A DNA stretch of 64,000 nucleotides from an uncultured Alphaproteobacteria bacterium. Lineage in GTDB: Bacteria > Pseudomonadota > Alphaproteobacteria > Rs-D84 > CACZYB01. The position numbers and the translations under genes are program-made. Location: NCBI GenBank assembly GCA_944392955.1, contig CALXYK010000004.1:69048-133047 (forward strand), read 5' to 3'. Below are positions 48,010 through 62,625 of the stretch, piece after piece. Each line of letters starts with the position of its first letter. Within the stretch, counting starts at the first letter, position 1. Below the pieces are notes generated by a model. It ran no database searches, was not told where the DNA came from, and saw only the letters and a list, made by a program, of their open reading frames with translations.

Positions 48010-49668
48010 ATGAAAAAAAGATTTTATATATTATTTTTTATATCTGTTGGTTTTTTAATAAATTCCAATGTTTTTTCAGCACCAAATCGCTCACAACGAT
48101 CCCGTTCTGCATCAACTTCTATCAATACTATTCGCGGGAATTACAATACTTCAACAAATACTTATACCGGAACTAAAACAACTACAACCACACAAACCAG
48201 TAATGATACTTTACAATGTGGTATTGCACCTGATGCGACAAACAATCTTGCAAAACGACAATGTGCAATTGCTATGGCCGAAGCGTTAAAGTTATATTGT
48301 GCTTCATATCCATGCAACAGCAAAATAAAGGTTGAACTATCTTTTAATTTTGCACTACCAAGTTTAGAAAAAATATCCTCTACAATAAATGGTGAAAGTT
48401 GTTCGGGTGCAAATCTTGATAAATTTTGTGCACCATTCCAAAGTTCTTTGATAAATAATCTTTGGGATTTATATTCTGAACAATCTATAAGAGATAGAAA
48501 AAACTGCGATATGGCAAAGGCAAAATATTCCGCAGCCCAAGATTGCTTTGCATATATACAATCTGCTAAAAACAATTCTGTCGGCAACAGATTTAGTAAA
48601 AGTAAAATCACCGAACTTGATAAAGAAATAGATAAACGATGCGGTAAAGAAGCAATCATAAATAAATATAAATCTATCAGTATTGATGATTGGACCGAAG
48701 AAGATGAAAATACATTCTTTAAAAACATAAGTTTCACTTCAAATGCAACAGGCGAACTTATAGACTCTTATCAAGGAGAAAAGCAATTATCTTCCACTGT
48801 TGCAAGTTTATTTGCAAATACAGGGGACAATACATGGAATTATGCCGGACAAATTGGAAGACTTTTTGATCTTAATTTCAGCACTAAATCTTCTACATAT
48901 CCAAGGGAGTTAGTCGTAATAGCAAACACATTTGTAACAGAAGGAGAAGCTGCTTGTGGTAAAGATTTTAAAGTTGATATGGAAACAACATCATTTGAAA
49001 TAAGTGATTCTCGCTCTGCACTTGAAAAACAAATTGCAAAGAAAGGTATATTAAAAGGATTGTTTGATTTTGGTATAGATAATACCGTTGGTGCAATAAG
49101 CGAGGATAAGGCTCAAAGTTGGAAAGAAAAAGGTATCCTCGGCAAAGTTTCAGAAAGCAAAGATAAAAAAACGGCAGAACAACTTGATAAAATTTTATCA
49201 AAATTACAAATTCTTTCAACAAATTGTAATACATCTGCTGGTAATTTTGAACAAATAACAACAGAAATAAAATTTATATTAAACGAATTAAAAACAATAA
49301 TAGGAAACACAGATAGATTTGAAGCAAACAAAGAAAAAATAAGAGAAGTTTTAGATACTATATTAACATTCAAAAGGGATCCTAACGAAGAAATAACAAT
49401 AACTTCTAATACCCAGGCTGAATTTAACTTAACAATATTAAAGTTAGAAACTTTAAGATTTACATGTCCAAATGGCGACTTTAATACAACTGAACAAGAA
49501 ACTATCCAGTATGAATTTAGTTATGATACTTCTGCTCCTAATGTAATAAATACCATACTAAATTCTTTAAAGGAAAGTGTAATATTTACAGGAACATTGA
49601 TATATTCTGATTATGAAAATGGTGAAGAAATCAAACAAATATTAGCACCACTAAATGATATAAAATAA
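48010..49668 (+). CDS. Secreted protein, paralog family member C
   Basis: The signal peptide is ...INSNVFSA|PNRSQRSRSASTSINTIRGN. The blocks KRQCAIAMAEALKLYCAS, NNLWDLYSEQSIRDRKNCDMAKAKYSAAQDCFAYIQSAKN and YPRELVVIANTFVTEGEAACGKDF...LEKQIAKKGILKG align with A and B. Confidence 0.7.
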   Translation: MKKRFYILFFISVGFLINSNVFSAPNRSQRSRSASTSINTIRGNYNTSTNTYTGTKTTTTTQTSNDTLQCGIAPDATNNLAKRQCAIAMAEALKLYCASYPCNSKIKVELSFNFALPSLEKISSTINGESCSGANLDKFCAPFQSSLINNLWDLYSEQSIRDRKNCDMAKAKYSAAQDCFAYIQSAKNNSVGNRFSKSKITELDKEIDKRCGKEAIINKYKSISIDDWTEEDENTFFKNISFTSNATGELIDSYQGEKQLSSTVASLFANTGDNTWNYAGQIGRLFDLNFSTKSSTYPRELVVIANTFVTEGEAACGKDFKVDMETTSFEISDSRSALEKQIAKKGILKGLFDFGIDNTVGAISEDKAQSWKEKGILGKVSESKDKKTAEQLDKILSKLQILSTNCNTSAGNFEQITTEIKFILNELKTIIGNTDRFEANKEKIREVLDTILTFKRDPNEEITITSNTQAEFNLTILKLETLRFTCPNGDFNTTEQETIQYEFSYDTSAPNVINTILNSLKESVIFTGTLIYSDYENGEEIKQILAPLNDIK

Positions 49669-54131: not shown

Positions 54132-54521
54132 ATGAAAAAAACACTACTTTTACTTTTAATAATAACATATGCAACCCCATCATATGCACTAACACTACAA
54201 ACATTAAAAGATACTCTTGAAAAATATTGTGTTCCTAATACCGCCACTTGCTTAGATCCGAAATTACAGGCGGATTATACAAACGGCAAATGTGTATGTA
54301 AAGAAGATGGTCGCTATTGGAACAAAGAAGACAGAGCCTGCGAAGAATGCACCGGACCAACAATAGTAAATGAAGAAGGTGACGGCTGTAAACCAATCAA
54401 ATGCCCTGATGGTTATGCAATAATTTTAATAACAGATGGAAATTGCCCTTCTGGATATTATCTAGCACAAATACAAAACGGAAATTGTCCTGCGGGCTAT
54501 GAACTTTGGAGTTATAAATAA
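54132..54521 (+). CDS. Small secreted Cys-rich protein (129 aa) with CPxGY-type repeats
   Basis: An SD (AACAGGAGAG) precedes the ATG. The signal peptide is LLLLLIITYATPSYA|LTLQ. There are 12 Cys, including KCPDGYAIILITDGNCPSGYYLAQIQNGNCPAGYELW. Confidence 0.6.
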   Translation: MKKTLLLLLIITYATPSYALTLQTLKDTLEKYCVPNTATCLDPKLQADYTNGKCVCKEDGRYWNKEDRACEECTGPTIVNEEGDGCKPIKCPDGYAIILITDGNCPSGYYLAQIQNGNCPAGYELWSYK

Positions 54522-54540
54522 AAAAGAAAGAGAGGAAAAC

Positions 54541-55419
54541 ATGAAACTAAAACATTCACTTTTGATATGTATAAGCGGTGGAATTGCCATCACATCACAA
54601 ACACTTAATGCACAAACATTTTACCAATGTATCCAATGCAAAAGCGGAACCTATGCCACAAGCACAGGTTGCGAACCTTGTCCAAAGGGATATTATTGCA
54701 CAGACGGAATAAAAACTGCCTGCCCTGAATTTCAGACCACTTCTAGCACAGGAAATTCAAGTAGTAGTGCTTGCCATATTCAAGAAGTAAAAATTTATGG
54801 TAAAAGTGTAACATCTGGGGTAATATCAACTCAATATGAGACTATTCCTGTAAACCATAGTGCATTCACTTGTGACAAAAACAGTTTTCCTAAATTATTT
54901 GGAACTGGTGGACTTACTCCAAGTATAAGTGGATGTGTGGTAAGTATTTTAGGACATTATACATATGATATAGGTAAATATGGCAATGGACAATATTACA
55001 ACATAGTTTGTGATGGAATACCATGTAATGAATATCATGTAGAAAAAGTAAATACCTGCTCAGCTGGATACTATATACCTTCTGGCTCAACATCGTGTCA
55101 ACCATGTGGTTATGGATACTATTGCTCTGGCGGAAAAAGAACCGGTTGTCCTGTTAATAAAACAACAACTACTACAACAGCATCAAGTTCAAGTGCTTGC
55201 ATAGATCAATATTGGGGTTTCAGATACAAAACTAGTTCTGGAACTTCAACATTAAAATATAAAATTGAACAAGTAGGTTATTGCCCTATACAAAGTGGTT
55301 GTACCTTCATTGATGCAACAGGGGCAATAGGAGGAGGAGCTGGAGGAACTTACATGGGATTATGTTCAACTAGTGGACCTTGTTCTCACCCTACTATAAT
55401 CAAATACACACCACAGTAA
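54541..55419 (+). CDS. Secreted Cys-rich repeat protein (about 292 aa) with eukaryote-like C-x-P-C-x-x-G-Y-Y-C repeats
   Basis: The ATG at 54541 follows the SD AAAGAGAGGAAAAC. The ORF-track start at 54499 overlaps the upstream gene. The signal peptide is ...ITSQTLNA|QTF. Repeats include CIQCKSGTYATSTGCEPCPKGYYCTDGIKTACPEF and CSAGYYIPSGSTSCQPCGYGYYCSGGKRTGCPVNKTT. Poly-Thr/Ser linkers (TTTTTTASSSSAC) are present. Confidence 0.6.
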   Translation: MKLKHSLLICISGGIAITSQTLNAQTFYQCIQCKSGTYATSTGCEPCPKGYYCTDGIKTACPEFQTTSSTGNSSSSACHIQEVKIYGKSVTSGVISTQYETIPVNHSAFTCDKNSFPKLFGTGGLTPSISGCVVSILGHYTYDIGKYGNGQYYNIVCDGIPCNEYHVEKVNTCSAGYYIPSGSTSCQPCGYGYYCSGGKRTGCPVNKTTTTTTASSSSACIDQYWGFRYKTSSGTSTLKYKIEQVGYCPIQSGCTFIDATGAIGGGAGGTYMGLCSTSGPCSHPTIIKYTPQ

Positions 55420-58438: not shown

Positions 58439-58472
58439 AAAAGGTAGTTTTTACTACCTTTCTTTTTTTTGT
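58439..58472. terminator. Bidirectional terminator between the oxidoreductase gene (+) and the small-gene operon (-)
   Basis: AAGGTAGT-tttt-ACTACCTTTCTTTTTTTT. The minus-strand gene's stop codon lies within the stem. Confidence 0.6.
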
Positions 58473-58702
58473 GATACAACCACACTCCATTTCAAAAGAG
58501 CCTTCCCATCCGAAGCCCTAGGAGCCTTATCCAACTTTTTTATACGCTTTTTTAAACCTGCAATAACATTACGATAATAAGAAATTTGAAGTTCATCATT
58601 TGATGCAGAAGTCTCAATAAACATCTCATAATGTTTTATACATTCTTCCAAAACTTTTTTTTCCAAATCTACATCAACTTTGTGAAATACTGTATGAACC
58701 AC
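58454..58702 (-). CDS. Small hypothetical protein (82 aa), third gene of a 3-gene micro-operon
   Basis: GTG start preceded by the SD AAGGAGAG at -8. It starts 1 nt after the upstream gene's stop. It is charged, has no TM or signal, and shows no recognisable motif. Confidence 0.45.
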   Translation of the reverse strand: MVHTVFHKVDVDLEKKVLEECIKHYEMFIETSASNDELQISYYRNVIAGLKKRIKKLDKAPRASDGKALLKWSVVVSQKKER

Positions 58703-58703
58703 T

Positions 58704-58925
58704 TTATCTCTCCTTATCTGTCAAAAATTCATCTACTAAACCTTCTCTTAATTCAGGTTTATCCAAAATAGATGCCTTAATCTGTTCTAATTGTTTTAAT
58801 TCCTTAGTCAAATAAGAAAACATAAAACTTTCTTCTGAAAGCTTACTTAAATCAGCTTTGCATCTTTCAATAGACTTTTCAACTAATACAAGTTGTTCTC
58901 TATAACTAACAGGTTTTTTAACCAT
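58704..58925 (-). CDS. Small hypothetical protein (73 aa), second gene of the micro-operon
   Basis: ATG start preceded by the perfect SD TAGGAGG at -9. The product is predicted helical and charged (…LSKLSEESFMFSYLTKELKQLEQIKASILDKPELREGL…). Confidence 0.5.
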   Translation of the reverse strand: MVKKPVSYREQLVLVEKSIERCKADLSKLSEESFMFSYLTKELKQLEQIKASILDKPELREGLVDEFLTDKER

Positions 58926-58937
58926 TATATATACCTC

Positions 58938-59321
58938 CTACCTATTATTTTCAGATTCTTTAAGTGCTTTTTGAATCTTTGCATTATGTTCTTTTATCAT
59001 TTTTGCAAATTGTCTTTTATCAAAAGATTTTTTGGCACTTTCTATTTCTTCTGGTGAAAATTTATTTTGCATTCTTTTTACTAACTTTTTAAGGTATTGC
59101 TCAGAATTTCTAGCAATAATTTCATCCTTATATTCACCTGTACTACGAGCATTTTTAATATTTTTTCCTACCCTATCAATTTCAAATATAAAAAATTCAA
59201 GAGTTTCCCTTTCATCTTTTTCTCTAATTCTTCTTTCATTTGACATAAATTCAGTTCTTTCAGCCGCAGTTTTCCAGCTTTCAGTTTCTAAGTATTTACG
59301 CATTTTATTAAAGTATCCCAT
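58938..59321 (-). CDS. Small hypothetical protein (127 aa), first gene of the micro-operon downstream of tolB
   Basis: ATG start with the SD AAAGGTGA. The product is Lys/Glu/Arg-rich and lacks a signal peptide or lipobox, so it is not Pal. It lies 12 nt upstream of the next gene. Confidence 0.5.
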   Translation of the reverse strand: MGYFNKMRKYLETESWKTAAERTEFMSNERRIREKDERETLEFFIFEIDRVGKNIKNARSTGEYKDEIIARNSEQYLKKLVKRMQNKFSPEEIESAKKSFDKRQFAKMIKEHNAKIQKALKESENNR

Positions 59322-60863: not shown

Positions 60864-61142
60864 ATGTATAATAAAAGAAAACTTTACGATAAGGAAATTC
60901 AAAAATCACTATCCACATTATCTATTAATGTAGATGGTAATAATTTTGATTCTATAAAAAAAATAAATTACACTCATATAGGTATTGATTATTGGTCATG
61001 GATTGATCTTATTGCCCATCTAGAAACAACATTTTCAAAGGATCTTGCTGAGACAACTGATAAATTTAAGATAGAAACAATTGATGAAGTAATAGAAGCA
61101 TTATACAATGCTCCGGATATTAAAAATTTATATAATAACTAA
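60864..61142 (+). CDS. ACP-like small protein (92 aa) lacking the canonical DSL phosphopantetheine-attachment serine
   Basis: HIGIDYWSWIDLIAHLETTF aligns position-by-position with the acpP block [19 protein letters not shown]. Conserved residues are G, D, L, E and F. The Ser of DSL is replaced by Tyr, and the next Ser is two residues later. It lies directly upstream of the genuine acpP. Confidence 0.45.
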   Translation: MYNKRKLYDKEIQKSLSTLSINVDGNNFDSIKKINYTHIGIDYWSWIDLIAHLETTFSKDLAETTDKFKIETIDEVIEALYNAPDIKNLYNN

Positions 61143-61558: not shown

Positions 61559-61594
61559 AAAAAACAACCTCCTTTAAAGGAGGTTTTTTTTAAG
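61559..61594. terminator. Bidirectional rho-independent terminator after acpP (+) / ruvX (-)
   Basis: AAAAAACAACCTCCTT-taa-AGGAGGTTTTTTTTAAG. Confidence 0.7.
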
Positions 61595-62051
61595 AATCTA
61601 AAACTCTTTGTAATATCTCTGCGGCAGCTACCTTATCCAATATATTTTTTCTTTTTTTTCTACTTAAATCAAAATCACGAATTAACATTTTTTCAACCAT
61701 CACAGACGACATTCTTTCATCAGCAAAAACTACTTCTATGTATGGCAAAGATTTTTTCAAATATTCTGCAAAATCCCTAATTTTAAAGGCAGTTTTACCT
61801 TCACTTCCATCCATTTGTAAAGGCATTCCAATAACAATAACCGCAACATCCATTTCCACAACTATTTTCGCTATTTCAGACACAAGATTCTTATAACCTT
61901 TATTTTTAAGCATAACATAAGGCGATGCAATCTGTCTTCCTACATCAGATATAGCAATTCCAACATTGATTTCACCATAATCAATACCTAAAAATCGCTT
62001 TTCAGTATTAAAATATTTTTTCTTTAATCTATTGAAAATATTATCAATCAA
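61590..62051 (-). CDS. ruvX: Putative pre-16S rRNA nuclease / Holliday junction resolvase-like protein RuvX (YqgF)
   Basis: The RNaseH-like N-terminus is KRFLGIDYGEINVGIAISD. The in-frame TTG at 62051 is preceded by the SD AAGGAG at -8. The ORF-track extension to 62267 is hydrophobic junk that overlaps the divergent gene. Confidence 0.7.
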   Translation of the reverse strand: MIDNIFNRLKKKYFNTEKRFLGIDYGEINVGIAISDVGRQIASPYVMLKNKGYKNLVSEIAKIVVEMDVAVIVIGMPLQMDGSEGKTAFKIRDFAEYLKKSLPYIEVVFADERMSSVMVEKMLIRDFDLSRKKRKNILDKVAAAEILQRVLDS

Positions 62052-62130
62052 TGTTATACTCCTTAACAGATTACCTTTAATATAAAATAGAAAATAAAGG
62101 AAGTCAAACAACAAAAAAGGAGAAAATATT

Positions 62131-62508
62131 ATGGTAGCAAAAAAAACAAACACAAAAAAAACTGCTAGTAAAGCAAAAAAAGTTACAAAACCTGCAGTAA
62201 AGGCTGAAATGACAAACGCACAAACTTGCTCATGTGGTCCTACTTGCTCATGTGGTCCTGATTGCAAATGTCACTGTCACTGCTGTAACAAAGCAAAAGC
62301 TCTTATCGTATTGCTTTTAGTGGTAATTGCAACAGTAATAGTAACTTTGGTTGTAACAAAATCCCCATGTGGCCGTAGAAGAGCCCCAATGGGACCATGT
62401 CCATACGAAAGAAAAGCAGAAATGGGACCAAACAGAAGAATGAAAAACAGAATGCCTCCTGCACCAAAGGAAGCACCTGCACCTGCTCCTGTTGCTGCAA
62501 AGGACTAA
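62131..62508 (+). CDS. Metallothionein-like membrane protein: Lys-rich N-terminus, Cys/His cluster (CSCGPTCSCGPDCKCHCHCC), single TM helix, Pro/Arg-rich tail
   Basis: A strong SD (AAAAGGAGAAAA) precedes the ATG. The sequence is MVAKKTNTKKTASKAKKVTKPAVKAEMTNAQTCSCGPTCSCGPDCKCHCHCCNKAKALIVLLLVVIATVIVTLVVTK.... A terminator follows the stop. Local GC is clearly elevated. Confidence 0.55.
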   Translation: MVAKKTNTKKTASKAKKVTKPAVKAEMTNAQTCSCGPTCSCGPDCKCHCHCCNKAKALIVLLLVVIATVIVTLVVTKSPCGRRRAPMGPCPYERKAEMGPNRRMKNRMPPAPKEAPAPAPVAAKD

Positions 62509-62524
62509 ACTAGAAACTATTAAC

Positions 62525-62557
62525 AAAAAGGACATTTTAAAATGTCCTTTTTTCTTT
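62525..62557 (+). terminator. Rho-independent terminator after the metallothionein-like gene
   Basis: AAAAAGGACATTTT-AAAATGTCCTTTTTTCTTTT. Confidence 0.65.
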
Positions 62558-62625
62558 TAATCAATACTTGACTAAGAAAATCTAATAATGCTAAAATCCA
62601 GTAAAACAAAAGAAAGGGATTCTGA

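What the first reader, a model, noticed from the sequence alone, without database searches (positions are those of the whole stretch)
62131..62508. GC-rich gene for a metallothionein-like Cys/His cluster fused to a Lys-rich head, a TM helix and a Pro/Arg tail
A 125-aa ORF with a strong SD and its own terminator encodes four parts. First is a histone H1-like Lys/Ala/Thr-rich N-terminus (KKTNTKKTASKAKKVTKPAVKA). Second is a dense metal-binding-type cluster, C-S-C-G-P-T-C-S-C-G-P-D-C-K-C-H-C-H-C-C (9 Cys and 2 His in 20 residues, with a duplicated TCSCGP unit). Third is a single hydrophobic TM helix. Fourth is a C-terminal Pro/Arg/Met-rich tail (…GPCPYERKAEMGPNRRMKNRMPPAPKEAPAPAPVAAKD). The DNA here is markedly more GC-rich than its surroundings, suggesting foreign origin or strong compositional constraint. 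The architecture (cytosolic metal cluster plus membrane anchor) does not match classical SmtA-type bacterial metallothioneins.
Basis: seen in the sequence. Interest (0 to 1): 0.6.

Follow-up and report, generated by a model that had tools for sequence, protein, structure and literature searches.

The report
Membrane-anchored metallothionein-like small protein family
The ORF is a real, native gene for a small single-pass membrane protein carrying a metallothionein-like cysteine cluster; it belongs to an undescribed family from uncultured, probably alphaproteobacterial, bacteria, and its metal-binding role is inferred, not shown.

Summary
ORF 62131-62508 (+) encodes 125 aa with a Lys-rich head, 9 Cys and 2 His in 20 residues, one strongly hydrophobic helix and a Pro/Arg/Met-rich tail. 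It has an AAGGAG Shine-Dalgarno site, a promoter-like site and a hairpin terminator. It is not a chance ORF: about 50 protein clusters share the architecture, dN/dS is 0.23-0.44, and its closer relatives always sit divergently next to ruvX. It is not foreign. Its 41% GC is exactly what its amino-acid composition predicts under the genome's own codon usage, and GC3 and codon adaptation are typical. No Pfam, NCBIfam or PDB family matches. The Cys spacing, CxC-x3-CxC-x3-CxC, is that of plant metallothioneins. The cluster length varies between near-identical alleles through an 18-bp tandem unit. A sister clade has the same head, cluster and helix followed by an EF-hand-like loop and two invariant Cys. 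Its charge distribution puts the head and cluster in the cytoplasm and the tail outside. Best reading: a bitopic inner-membrane protein holding a cytoplasmic metal-thiolate cluster at the membrane, confidence about 0.4. Function is untested. It is a new variant of a known kind, of moderate interest.

The parts
62032..62060 (+). Promoter-like site, TTGAAA-17 nt-TATACT with TG before the -10. It overlaps the first codons and the Shine-Dalgarno site of the divergent ruvX.
   Evidence: The stretch is conserved in relatives, but it also encodes the ruvX start, so that conservation is not independent evidence.
62117..62122 (+). Shine-Dalgarno AAGGAG, 8 nt upstream of the ATG
   Evidence: All homologous loci have AAGGAG(G) at the same place.
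62131..62508 (+). Coding sequence, 125 aa plus stop
   Evidence: Homologs. dN/dS 0.23-0.44.
62131..62208 (+). Lys-rich disordered head (aa 1-26, MVAKKTNTKKTASKAKKVTKPAVKAE). It is conserved at the protein level and contains two A8 runs, at 62139-62146 and 62154-62161.
   Evidence: MVAKKT is invariant or nearly invariant in the narrow clade. Codons differ synonymously between loci. pLDDT is below 50.
62227..62286 (+). Cys/His cluster (aa 33-52), CSCGPTCSCGPDCKCHCHCC, pattern CxC-x3-CxC-x3-CxC-H-C-H-CC
   Evidence: The Cys columns are the conserved ones. 14 of 15 narrow-clade and 16 of 16 broad-clade members carry C.C.{2,4}C.C. The same spacing is listed for plant metallothioneins in PMC8836122.
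62224..62259 (+). Perfect 18-bp tandem duplication (ACTTGCTCATGTGGTCCT x2) encoding TCSCGP twice
   Evidence: The otherwise ~96% identical allele P0002 (91% by BLASTP, 96% over aligned columns) lacks 8 residues of the cluster, equivalent to one TCSCGP unit plus one His-Cys pair.
62299..62358 (+). Single transmembrane helix (aa 57-76, ALIVLLLVVIATVIVTLVVT), preceded by NKAK
   Evidence: Mean Kyte-Doolittle hydropathy 3.37 over 19 residues. It is the only confident element of the AlphaFold2 model, helix 52-76, block pLDDT 87. hhalign aligns the cluster plus helix to the sister clade with probability 98.3%.
62365..62403 (+). Post-helix Cys-Pro motif (aa 79-91, PCGRRRAPMGPCP): C80 is nearly invariant and the PCP[FY/H] element is conserved
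   Evidence: It corresponds to KCPK(M/L) in the sister clade.
62404..62505 (+). Pro/Arg/Met-rich tail ending in APAPAPVAAKD. The Pro/Ala C-terminus is shared with both clades.
62525..62552 (+). Intrinsic terminator hairpin (12 pairs, loop of 4) followed by a T-run. gatC downstream has its own promoter-like site at 62568-62597.
61590..62051 (-). Divergent neighbour ruvX (yqgF, PF03652), TTG start. This is the only neighbour conserved across the narrow clade. It is context, not a demonstrated functional partner.

Best explanation
This is a genuine, vertically inherited chromosomal gene encoding a small bitopic inner-membrane protein. It belongs to a family not present in Pfam or NCBIfam. In the proposed arrangement, the polycationic, disordered N-terminal head and the CxC-rich Cys/His cluster lie in the reducing cytoplasm, directly against the inner face of the membrane. 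One helix spans the membrane. The C-terminal tail faces the periplasm. In a sister clade that tail is an EF-hand-like loop with two invariant Cys. In this clade it is reduced to a Cys-Pro, Met/Arg-rich, Pro/Ala-ended stretch. The cluster most likely binds soft metal ions (Zn2+, Cu+ or Cd2+) as a metallothionein-type thiolate cluster. This cluster may be assembled between chains of an oligomer held together by the Thr/Ala face of the helix. The protein would then act as a membrane-proximal metal buffer, hand-off point or sensor. What is shown: the ORF, its expression signals, its conservation under purifying selection, its native composition, the architecture, and the Cys pattern with its indel variability. 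What is inferred: the topology, the metal binding and the physiological role.
For: The gene is real. Homologs at 97%, 91% and 39% identity appeared in the first search. The exhaustive profile search listed 15 proteins, 13 of them new. 51 clusters matched the family profile. dN/dS is 0.23-0.44. All loci have a strong Shine-Dalgarno site, with synonymous codon differences in the conserved head. The position next to ruvX is kept while downstream genes change. The gene is native: GC3, codon adaptation and expected-versus-observed GC all fit the genome. The cluster is metallothionein-like. Its spacing CXCXXXCXCXXXCXC is identical to that given for plant metallothioneins. Cys columns are conserved while the residues between them vary. 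The Cys count in the head ranges from 5 to 10 across narrow-clade members. The cluster expands and contracts through an 18-bp tandem unit between near-identical alleles. There is no predicted fold. Relatives give sub-threshold Pfam hits to Metallothio_2 and Metallothio_5. Topology: in the sister clade the head has net charge +7 to +20 and the tail -9 to +6, and the N flank is more positive than the C flank in 13 of 16 members, with one tie and two reversed. The sister-clade tail has an EF-hand loop and two invariant Cys that could form a disulfide. Homology between the clades: hhalign probability 98.3%, E 1.7e-14 over the cluster plus helix, plus the shared Pro/Ala C-terminus. Pooled narrow-clade tails are enriched in Cys (6.6% against 1.1%), Met (4.6% against 2.0%) and His (2.9% against 1.2%).
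Against: There is no experimental or expression data. No metal-related gene lies next to any family member examined except a chromate transporter beside one distant member. No recognisable metal-responsive operator was seen by eye in the 79-bp intergenic region; its conservation is explained by ruvX's own start signals. For the window protein itself the positive-inside rule is ambiguous: the N flank is +2, the C flank is +4, and RRR follows the helix directly. Excised clusters hit no metallothionein model. The hhalign score rests on a low-complexity Cys stretch plus a hydrophobic helix, which can inflate similarity. A Cys-rich cluster could equally hold an Fe-S centre, act as a redox switch or be purely structural.
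Confidence: 0.4

Rival explanations
1. Fe-S or thiol-redox element. The Cys/His cluster holds an iron-sulfur centre or acts as a redox switch. The protein would serve as a small accessory or sensor subunit for a membrane transporter or complex, by analogy with FeoC and the FeoB-associated Cys-rich membrane peptides.
For: Small membrane-anchored Cys clusters of this kind exist (PF12669). They are discussed as FeoC-like, and E. coli FeoC binds a [4Fe-4S] cluster (PMC8749426). One family member hits PF12669 weakly, E 0.16. The four invariant Cys of the core CxCGxxCxCG would be enough for one Fe-S centre shared between chains.
Against: No feoB or other transporter gene is adjacent in any locus examined. 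The window protein has no PF12669 hit. The order of the parts is reversed: here the cluster precedes the helix. CxC-x3-CxC spacing and a copy number that varies by tandem units are typical of metallothionein-type clusters, not of defined Fe-S sites.
Confidence: 0.15
2. Membrane-tethered polycation. The Lys-rich head binds DNA, RNA or anionic lipids. This would make the protein a nucleoid or ribosome tether, or a minimal ToxR-like membrane-bound regulator. The Cys cluster would be a structural Zn site and the outer tail the sensor (Ca2+ via the EF-hand in the sister clade).
For: The head is the most sequence-conserved part in the narrow clade, with MVAKKT invariant or nearly invariant. Longer heads of the sister clade hit Pfam HC2 (histone H1-like), below threshold. 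HU/IHF-type genes lie within 1-4 kb in several loci. The sister-clade tail has a sensor-like EF-hand.
Against: The HC2 similarity is compositional and below the gathering score, and the window protein does not hit HC2 at all. The window head is only 26 residues long. There is no DNA-binding fold. HU proximity is loose and sits in housekeeping regions.
Confidence: 0.15
3. A horizontally acquired metallothionein gene, as the first reader suggested from the high GC.
For: GC is 0.413 against 0.304, higher than any long ORF in the window. The gene is monocistronic with its own promoter-like site and terminator.
Against: GC3 is 0.23, within the genes' range. The GC predicted from the amino-acid composition with host codon usage equals the observed value, 0.416. 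Codon adaptation is typical. Synteny with ruvX is conserved across relatives down to 39% identity. No mobile-element genes flank it.
Confidence: 0.03
4. A chance ORF, or a Cys-rich precursor of a ribosomally made modified peptide (SCIFF- or sactipeptide-like).
For: Cys-dense open frames do arise by chance in this AT-rich DNA. One member gives a weak NCBIfam hit to streptosactin, E 0.24.
Against: The ORF is conserved in length and architecture over about 50 clusters with dN/dS below 0.5. There is no radical-SAM or other maturase gene nearby. A central transmembrane helix and a 49-aa tail do not fit a precursor peptide.
Confidence: 0.02

Closest known systems
Plant-type metallothioneins (Pfam Metallothio_2; type 1/3 CXCXXXCXCXXXCXC domains) and insect Metallothio_5
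   Same: The Cys spacing CxC-x3-CxC-x3-CxC is identical, with Gly, Ser, Asp and Lys between the Cys. There is no stable fold without metal. The cluster length varies. Relatives give sub-threshold profile hits.
   Different: Those proteins are soluble and have no transmembrane helix (PMC8836122). Here the cluster is one module of a bitopic membrane protein with a polycationic head and an outer tail. There is no significant profile match. The resemblance is most likely convergent.
Bacterial metallothioneins of the SmtA/BmtA type
   Same: Bacterial origin, and a small protein with Cys plus His as likely ligands.
   Different: No sequence match to any Pfam model, which from my knowledge include the SmtA-type model Metallothio_Pro, PF02069. 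None of the solved chains in the PDB sequence library matches either. From established knowledge, SmtA is a soluble protein of about 56 aa with a zinc-finger-like fold. This one is membrane-anchored and its cluster region is modelled without any fold.
[quoted passage not shown]
   Same: A small bacterial peptide that joins one transmembrane helix to a juxtamembrane Cys cluster. Its function is also untested (PMC8749426).
   Different: The order of parts is opposite. From my knowledge, not checked here, PF12669 peptides have the helix first and the cluster after it. Its Cys spacing is different, Cx3-5Cx2-3Cx6-8C. It is linked to feoB and found in Firmicutes and Bacteroidetes. The window protein gives no hit and one relative gives E 0.16. 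No feoB lies nearby.
Eukaryotic CYSTM (cysteine-rich transmembrane module) proteins
   Same: Small membrane proteins that combine Cys clusters with a hydrophobic segment, linked to metal and stress tolerance (PMC2804304 and PMC10217909). The relatives P0003, P0017 and P0018 even carry CC pairs inside the helix.
   Different: CYSTM proteins are eukaryotic and tail-anchored, with the Cys inside a C-terminal hydrophobic segment that is palmitoylated in yeast (PMC10840359). Here the helix is central and, in the window protein, free of Cys. There is no profile match.

Membership tests
SmtA/BmtA bacterial metallothionein (Pfam Metallothio_Pro) | Significant match to the family profile | tested here: not met
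   No metallothionein model hit the whole protein at E up to 10. Ten excised clusters gave no hit at all. There was no NCBIfam hit and no PDB sequence hit with the family profile.
SmtA/BmtA bacterial metallothionein (Pfam Metallothio_Pro) | Small soluble protein without a membrane segment | tested here: not met
   A 19-residue segment has mean hydropathy 3.37, and AlphaFold2 models helix 52-76.
Metallothionein in the operational sense (Cys-rich, CxC/CxxC motifs, metal-thiolate clusters) | High Cys content arranged in CxC motifs | tested here: met
   9 Cys in 20 residues, with spacing CXCXXXCXCXXXCXC as in plant metallothioneins. The motif is present in 30 of 31 family members tested.
Metallothionein in the operational sense (Cys-rich, CxC/CxxC motifs, metal-thiolate clusters) | Demonstrated binding of several d10 metal ions per chain | not testable with these tools
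   Needs purified protein and ICP-MS or native MS.
Plant metallothionein (Pfam Metallothio_2, PF01439) | Profile match above the gathering score | tested here: not met
   The window protein gave no hit. The best relatives reached E 0.0095 and 0.041, the latter at 15.2 bits against a cut-off of 23.
[quoted passage not shown] | Profile match | tested here: not met
   The window protein gave no hit. One of 16 members reached E 0.16.
[quoted passage not shown] | Location downstream of, or fused to, feoB | tested here: not met
   The neighbours are ruvX, gatC and secF. No Feo gene appears in any locus examined.
CYSTM (eukaryotic cysteine-rich TM module) | Tail-anchored, with the Cys cluster inside a C-terminal hydrophobic segment | tested here: not met
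   The helix is central (aa 57-76 of 125) and Cys-free in the window protein. There is no Pfam hit.
EF-hand calcium-binding proteins | DxDxDG-type 12-residue loop between two helices | tested here: not met
   The window tail has no acidic loop. The sister clade has DxDxDGCITxEEF, with EF-hand_1 hits at E 3.6e-5 to 5e-3, below the cut-off. The sister-clade model shows helix-loop-helix, and the top Foldseek matches are calmodulin-like but not significant, E about 2.5.
Histone H1-like / Hc2 proteins (PF07382) | Profile match | tested here: not met
   The window protein gave no hit. Longer-headed relatives scored 18.7-31.6 bits against a cut-off of 40. The similarity is compositional only.
The undescribed family defined here (Lys head, CxC cluster, helix, Cys-Pro tail) | Lys-rich N-terminal head starting MVAKKT / MxxK(K)T | tested here: met
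The undescribed family defined here (Lys head, CxC cluster, helix, Cys-Pro tail) | Core CxCGxxCxCG immediately before a basic pair and one transmembrane helix | tested here: met
   hhalign between the clades gives probability 98.3%.
The undescribed family defined here (Lys head, CxC cluster, helix, Cys-Pro tail) | Post-helix Cys followed by a C-P motif, and in many members of both clades a Pro/Ala C-terminus | tested here: met
   C80 and PCP at 89-91, ending APAPAPVAAKD

The most novel reading that the evidence does not exclude
The family is a new class of minimal bitopic signal or relay protein. A periplasmic ion-binding tail would be mechanically or redox-coupled through an oligomerising helix to a cytoplasmic metal-thiolate cluster and an H1-like polycationic head that contacts DNA or RNA. 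The tail is an EF-hand for Ca2+ in the sister clade and a Cys-Pro/Met-rich stretch for soft metals here. This would be a membrane-tethered, metal-gated nucleoid contact or regulator with no folded DNA-binding domain.
Probability: 0.08. Interest if true: 0.75.

Novelty: new variant of a known kind. Interest (0 to 1): 0.45.

Why it matters
From general knowledge, the bacterial metallothioneins characterised so far are few, soluble and confined to a few lineages. A conserved family that fixes a metallothionein-type thiolate cluster to the cytoplasmic face of the membrane would be a different way of handling soft metals: buffering them or handing them over right where importers and exporters work. 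In one clade the cluster is paired with an external EF-hand. The family is absent from Pfam and NCBIfam and is so far seen only in uncultured bacteria; one member sits in a MAG that NCBI labels Alphaproteobacteria. Defining it therefore gives annotators a handle on it. It also gives metallobiologists a short, easily synthesised test object: 56 residues for the head plus cluster.

Tried and rejected
- **Pfam and NCBIfam scans.** I scanned the protein, all 16 aligned members and ten excised Cys clusters. Nothing reached any family cut-off.
- **PDB sequence search.** The family profile found no hit at E up to 10.
- **AlphaFold2 of the window protein.** Only the transmembrane helix is modelled, so a fold search on it would be meaningless and was not run.
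- **Foreign origin.** Rejected by the GC3, codon adaptation and expected-GC tests.
- **Chance ORF.** Rejected by conservation and dN/dS.
- **Metal-responsive operator or riboswitch upstream.** No Rfam family was found in the window apart from two tRNAs. The conserved intergenic block is explained by ruvX's Shine-Dalgarno site, start codon and -35.
- **Nucleotide-level constraint on the conserved head.** Rejected, because synonymous differences are present.
- **Modified-peptide precursor, lipoprotein or extended signal peptide.** Rejected. There is no maturase nearby and no lipobox, and a 56-residue, +10 region before the hydrophobic segment is not a signal peptide.
- **Paralogs in the window.** None was found.
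- **Genome and JGI metagenome scans.** Each gave only one further locus, L009 and L018. A scan with the broader alignment failed because no stretch was conserved enough.
- **Literature.** No paper contains the phrase 'membrane-anchored metallothionein', and none mentions SRP199465.
- **Taxonomy of the window.** It could not be fixed. One family member is labelled Alphaproteobacteria by NCBI, while L009's contig is titled Bacteroidales.
Full report
**Observation**

The ORF is at 62131-62508 on the + strand.
- AAGGAG lies at 62117-62122, 8 nt before the ATG.
- A sigma-70-like site, TTGAAA-17-TATACT with an upstream TG, lies at 62032-62060.
- A 12-pair hairpin with a T-run lies at 62525-62552, and gatC downstream has its own promoter-like site. 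The gene therefore looks monocistronic.
- The cluster CSCGPTCSCGPDCKCHCHCC has 9 Cys and 2 His in 20 residues.
- The TCSCGP duplication is a perfect 18-bp tandem repeat at 62224-62259.
- Residues 57-75 average 3.37 on the Kyte-Doolittle scale.
- AlphaFold2, run with a 15-sequence alignment, models one helix (52-76, block pLDDT 87) and leaves the rest unstructured.
- The tail is significantly enriched in Pro, Arg and Met relative to the window's own proteome.

**Is it more than chance?**

Cys-dense open frames arise by chance in this 30% GC DNA. One example is 9 Cys in 25 residues in a non-coding frame at 2418 (-). Cys density alone therefore carries no weight. Conservation does.
- The word-indexed search found proteins at 97%, 91% and 39% identity.
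- The exhaustive HMMER search of 1.84 billion representatives listed 15 proteins at or below E 1e-3, 13 of them new.
- A profile search of the 5.8-billion-protein set found 51 clusters.
- Nei-Gojobori dN/dS against five relatives, or between relatives, is 0.23-0.44. One pair has no synonymous differences at all and is uninformative.
- All loci carry AAGGAG(G) before the same ATG. The conserved head MVAKKT... is encoded with synonymous differences (GTA/GTT, GCA/GCT, ACA/ACT, AAC/AAT), so the constraint acts on the protein.

**Is it foreign?**

GC is 0.413 against 0.304 for the window, above the most GC-rich of 44 long ORFs (0.381). Three tests explain this without foreign origin.
- GC3 is 0.23, against 0.20 +/- 0.03 for the window's genes.
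- A CAI-like index is 0.688, against 0.704 +/- 0.032.
- The GC expected if each residue used the genome's own codon frequencies is 0.416, exactly the observed value.

The excess GC is therefore a consequence of Cys, Pro, Ala, Gly and Arg content. The gene also keeps its place, divergent from ruvX, in every narrow-clade locus long enough to show it. That holds even where the downstream genes differ: gatC-secF in the close relatives, other ORFs in L006, L009 and L014. The surrounding window is ordinary chromosome: ruvA, clpX, cmk, rpsA, pyk, tolB, acpP, ruvX, gatC and secF.

**The family**

Two clades share one plan.

The narrow clade is alignment A6 (15 sequences, 93-150 aa) and includes the window protein. 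Its parts, in order:
- an MVAKKT Lys-rich head;
- a CxCGxxCxCG... cluster with 5-10 Cys;
- a basic pair;
- a helix with a conserved IATVxxTLVV face;
- a nearly invariant Cys followed by PCP[F/Y/H];
- a Cys/Met/His/Pro-enriched tail, often ending in PAPAPVAxAK.

The broad clade is alignment A5 (16 sequences, 128-174 aa). Its parts, in order:
- a longer Lys/Ala/Thr/Val head, with sub-threshold Pfam HC2 hits;
- HxCxCGxxCxCGCH;
- FKKF;
- a helix LIxFALGFxSAK;
- PRPxFDNGCLVxxSVKCPKM;
- an EF-hand-like loop DxDxDGCITxEEF;
- often a PAPAPxVAE end.

hhalign joins the two profiles over the cluster plus helix, with probability 98.3% and E 1.7e-14. That score may be helped by low complexity and hydrophobicity. 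The shared head, the C-P motif and the Pro/Ala C-terminus point the same way.

The AlphaFold2 model of a broad-clade member folds the tail confidently, with block pLDDT 81-90, into a beta-hairpin and a helix-loop-helix. Its best Foldseek matches in the PDB are calmodulin, centrin and calbindin over about 30 residues, but at a non-significant E of about 2.5. EF-hand_1 hits are E 3.6e-5 to 5e-3, below the cut-off.

One further protein, P0016, carries the same head and cluster fused to a DUF805 membrane domain at 75.6 bits. The head-plus-cluster module is therefore portable between membrane anchors.

One member sits in a 90% cluster that includes a protein NCBI labels '[Alphaproteobacteria bacterium]'. 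Source loci have 28-44% GC.

**Topology (inferred)**

In the broad clade the head has net charge +7 to +20 and the tail -9 to +6. The 15 residues before the helix are more positive than the 15 after it in 13 of 16 members, with one tie and two reversed. The tail also has two invariant Cys and an EF-hand, which fit an oxidising, Ca-rich periplasm. This indicates N-in, C-out.

For the window protein alone the rule is ambiguous: the N flank is +2, the C flank is +4, and RRR follows the helix directly. Its N-in orientation rests on homology, and on the implausibility of exporting a 56-residue, +10 head that has no signal peptide.

**What the cluster looks like**

The spacing CxC-x3-CxC-x3-CxC is the one tabulated for plant metallothioneins (PMC8836122). 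Four further features are typical of metallothionein behaviour rather than of a defined zinc finger or Fe-S site:
- the Cys columns are conserved while the residues between them vary;
- the number of Cys varies between members;
- the otherwise ~96% identical allele P0002 (91% by BLASTP, 96% over aligned columns) lacks 8 residues of the cluster, equivalent to one TCSCGP unit plus one His-Cys pair;
- no fold is predicted without metal.

No metallothionein profile is matched, either by the whole protein or by excised clusters. Relatives give only sub-threshold hits to Metallothio_2 and Metallothio_5. The resemblance is one of pattern, most likely convergent. It is not evidence of membership.

**Mechanism proposed**

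The protein would be a bitopic inner-membrane protein. Its cytoplasmic juxtamembrane Cys/His cluster binds soft metal ions as a thiolate cluster. The cluster may form between chains, since only four Cys are invariant family-wide and the helix has a conserved small/polar face at T68 and T72. The polycationic head may lie on anionic lipid or nucleic acid. The outer tail is an EF-hand in the sister clade. Here it is reduced to a Cys-Pro, Met/Arg-rich stretch that might still bind Cu(I)-type ions. I give this 0.4.

Several points count against it:
- no family member sits in a metal operon, and the only metal-related neighbour seen is a chromate transporter beside one distant member;
- no metal-type operator is visible upstream by eye, and the conserved intergenic block is ruvX's own Shine-Dalgarno site, start and -35;
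- nothing has been measured.

**Rivals**
- An Fe-S or redox accessory peptide of the FeoC / PF12669 kind (PMC8749426). This is weakened by the lack of any Feo linkage and by the tandem-unit variability. Confidence 0.15.
- A membrane-tethered polycation that binds nucleoid or RNA, with the cluster as structural Zn and the tail as sensor. Confidence 0.15.
- Horizontal acquisition. Confidence 0.03.
- A chance ORF or modified-peptide precursor. Confidence 0.02.

**Comparison with known families**

The closest known things by pattern or architecture are:
- plant-type metallothioneins (same Cys spacing; soluble);
- SmtA/BmtA (bacterial; soluble; no match);
- PF12669 FeoB-associated Cys-rich membrane peptides (helix plus cluster, opposite order, feoB-linked);
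- eukaryotic CYSTM proteins (PMC2804304, PMC10217909 and PMC10840359).

The protein fails the membership tests for all four. No paper in the searchable library contains the phrase 'membrane-anchored metallothionein'.

**Verdict**

The gene is a member of a family absent from the protein-family databases and not turned up by the literature searches run here. I classify it as a new variant of a known kind, namely small Cys-rich metal-type proteins, here membrane-anchored. Interest is moderate, 0.45, because the function is unproven but cheaply testable.

Noticed in passing
window 62139-62146 and 62154-62161: There are two runs of eight A within the first 31 nt of the coding sequence (GCA AAA AAA ACA ... 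ACA AAA AAA ACT). Homopolymers of this length are prone to slippage. The Lys codons are kept as AAA AAA in nearly all relatives.
   Followed up: partly
window 62224-62259 and 62272-62283; P0002 / L008: Copy number in the Cys cluster differs between near-identical alleles. P0002 lacks 8 residues relative to the window protein, equivalent to one TCSCGP unit (the perfect 18-bp repeat) plus one His-Cys pair (window TGTCAC x2). The cluster length therefore appears to change by repeat slippage.
   Followed up: partly
window 58454-59321 (-): Three consecutive small ORFs (82, 73 and 127 aa; 82, 73 and 121 aa as called in L001) lie between the GFO/IDH/MocA oxidoreductase gene and tolB. They are Glu/Lys-rich and probably helical. 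None has a Pfam hit, and all are conserved in the related contig L001.
   Followed up: no
window 60864-61142 (+): A 92-aa ORF without a Pfam hit lies in the most AT-rich part of the region (GC 0.20-0.25). It is conserved upstream of acpP in L001 and L003.
   Followed up: no
window 54499-55419 (+): A 306-aa protein has Cys-rich repeats (CIQCKSGTYATSTGCEPCPKGYYC). It gives a weak sub-threshold hit to the eukaryote-type Ephrin_rec_like repeat, E 6e-4, 20 bits against a cut-off of 23.1.
   Followed up: no
window 48010-49668 (+): A 552-aa ORF between ruvA and clpX has no Pfam match at E 1e-3.
   Followed up: no
window 62032-62107: The promoter-like sites of ruvX (- strand, 62107..62079) and of the Cys-cluster gene (+ strand, 62032..62060) are back to back and overlap each other's transcribed regions. 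ruvX starts with TTG at 62051.
   Followed up: partly
window 61566-61585: A perfect 8-pair palindromic hairpin (AACCTCCT TTAA AGGAGGTT) flanked by T-runs on both strands lies between the convergent acpP and ruvX. It looks like a bidirectional terminator.
   Followed up: no
L009 (CAZHAL010000010.1): The contig is titled 'uncultured Bacteroidales bacterium', yet its genes have strong AAGGAGG Shine-Dalgarno sites. Its family member groups with proteins from a MAG that NCBI labels Alphaproteobacteria. The bin label may be wrong.
   Followed up: partly
P0016 (no locus fetched): The same Lys-rich head and Cys cluster are fused to a DUF805 multi-pass membrane domain (PF05656, 75.6 bits). The module can therefore sit on different membrane anchors.
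   Followed up: partly
L016 181-603 and 672-1726: The distant member P0010, which lacks the Lys head, lies convergent with a split chromate-transporter gene pair (PF02417). This is the only metal- or oxyanion-related neighbour seen in any locus.
   Followed up: no
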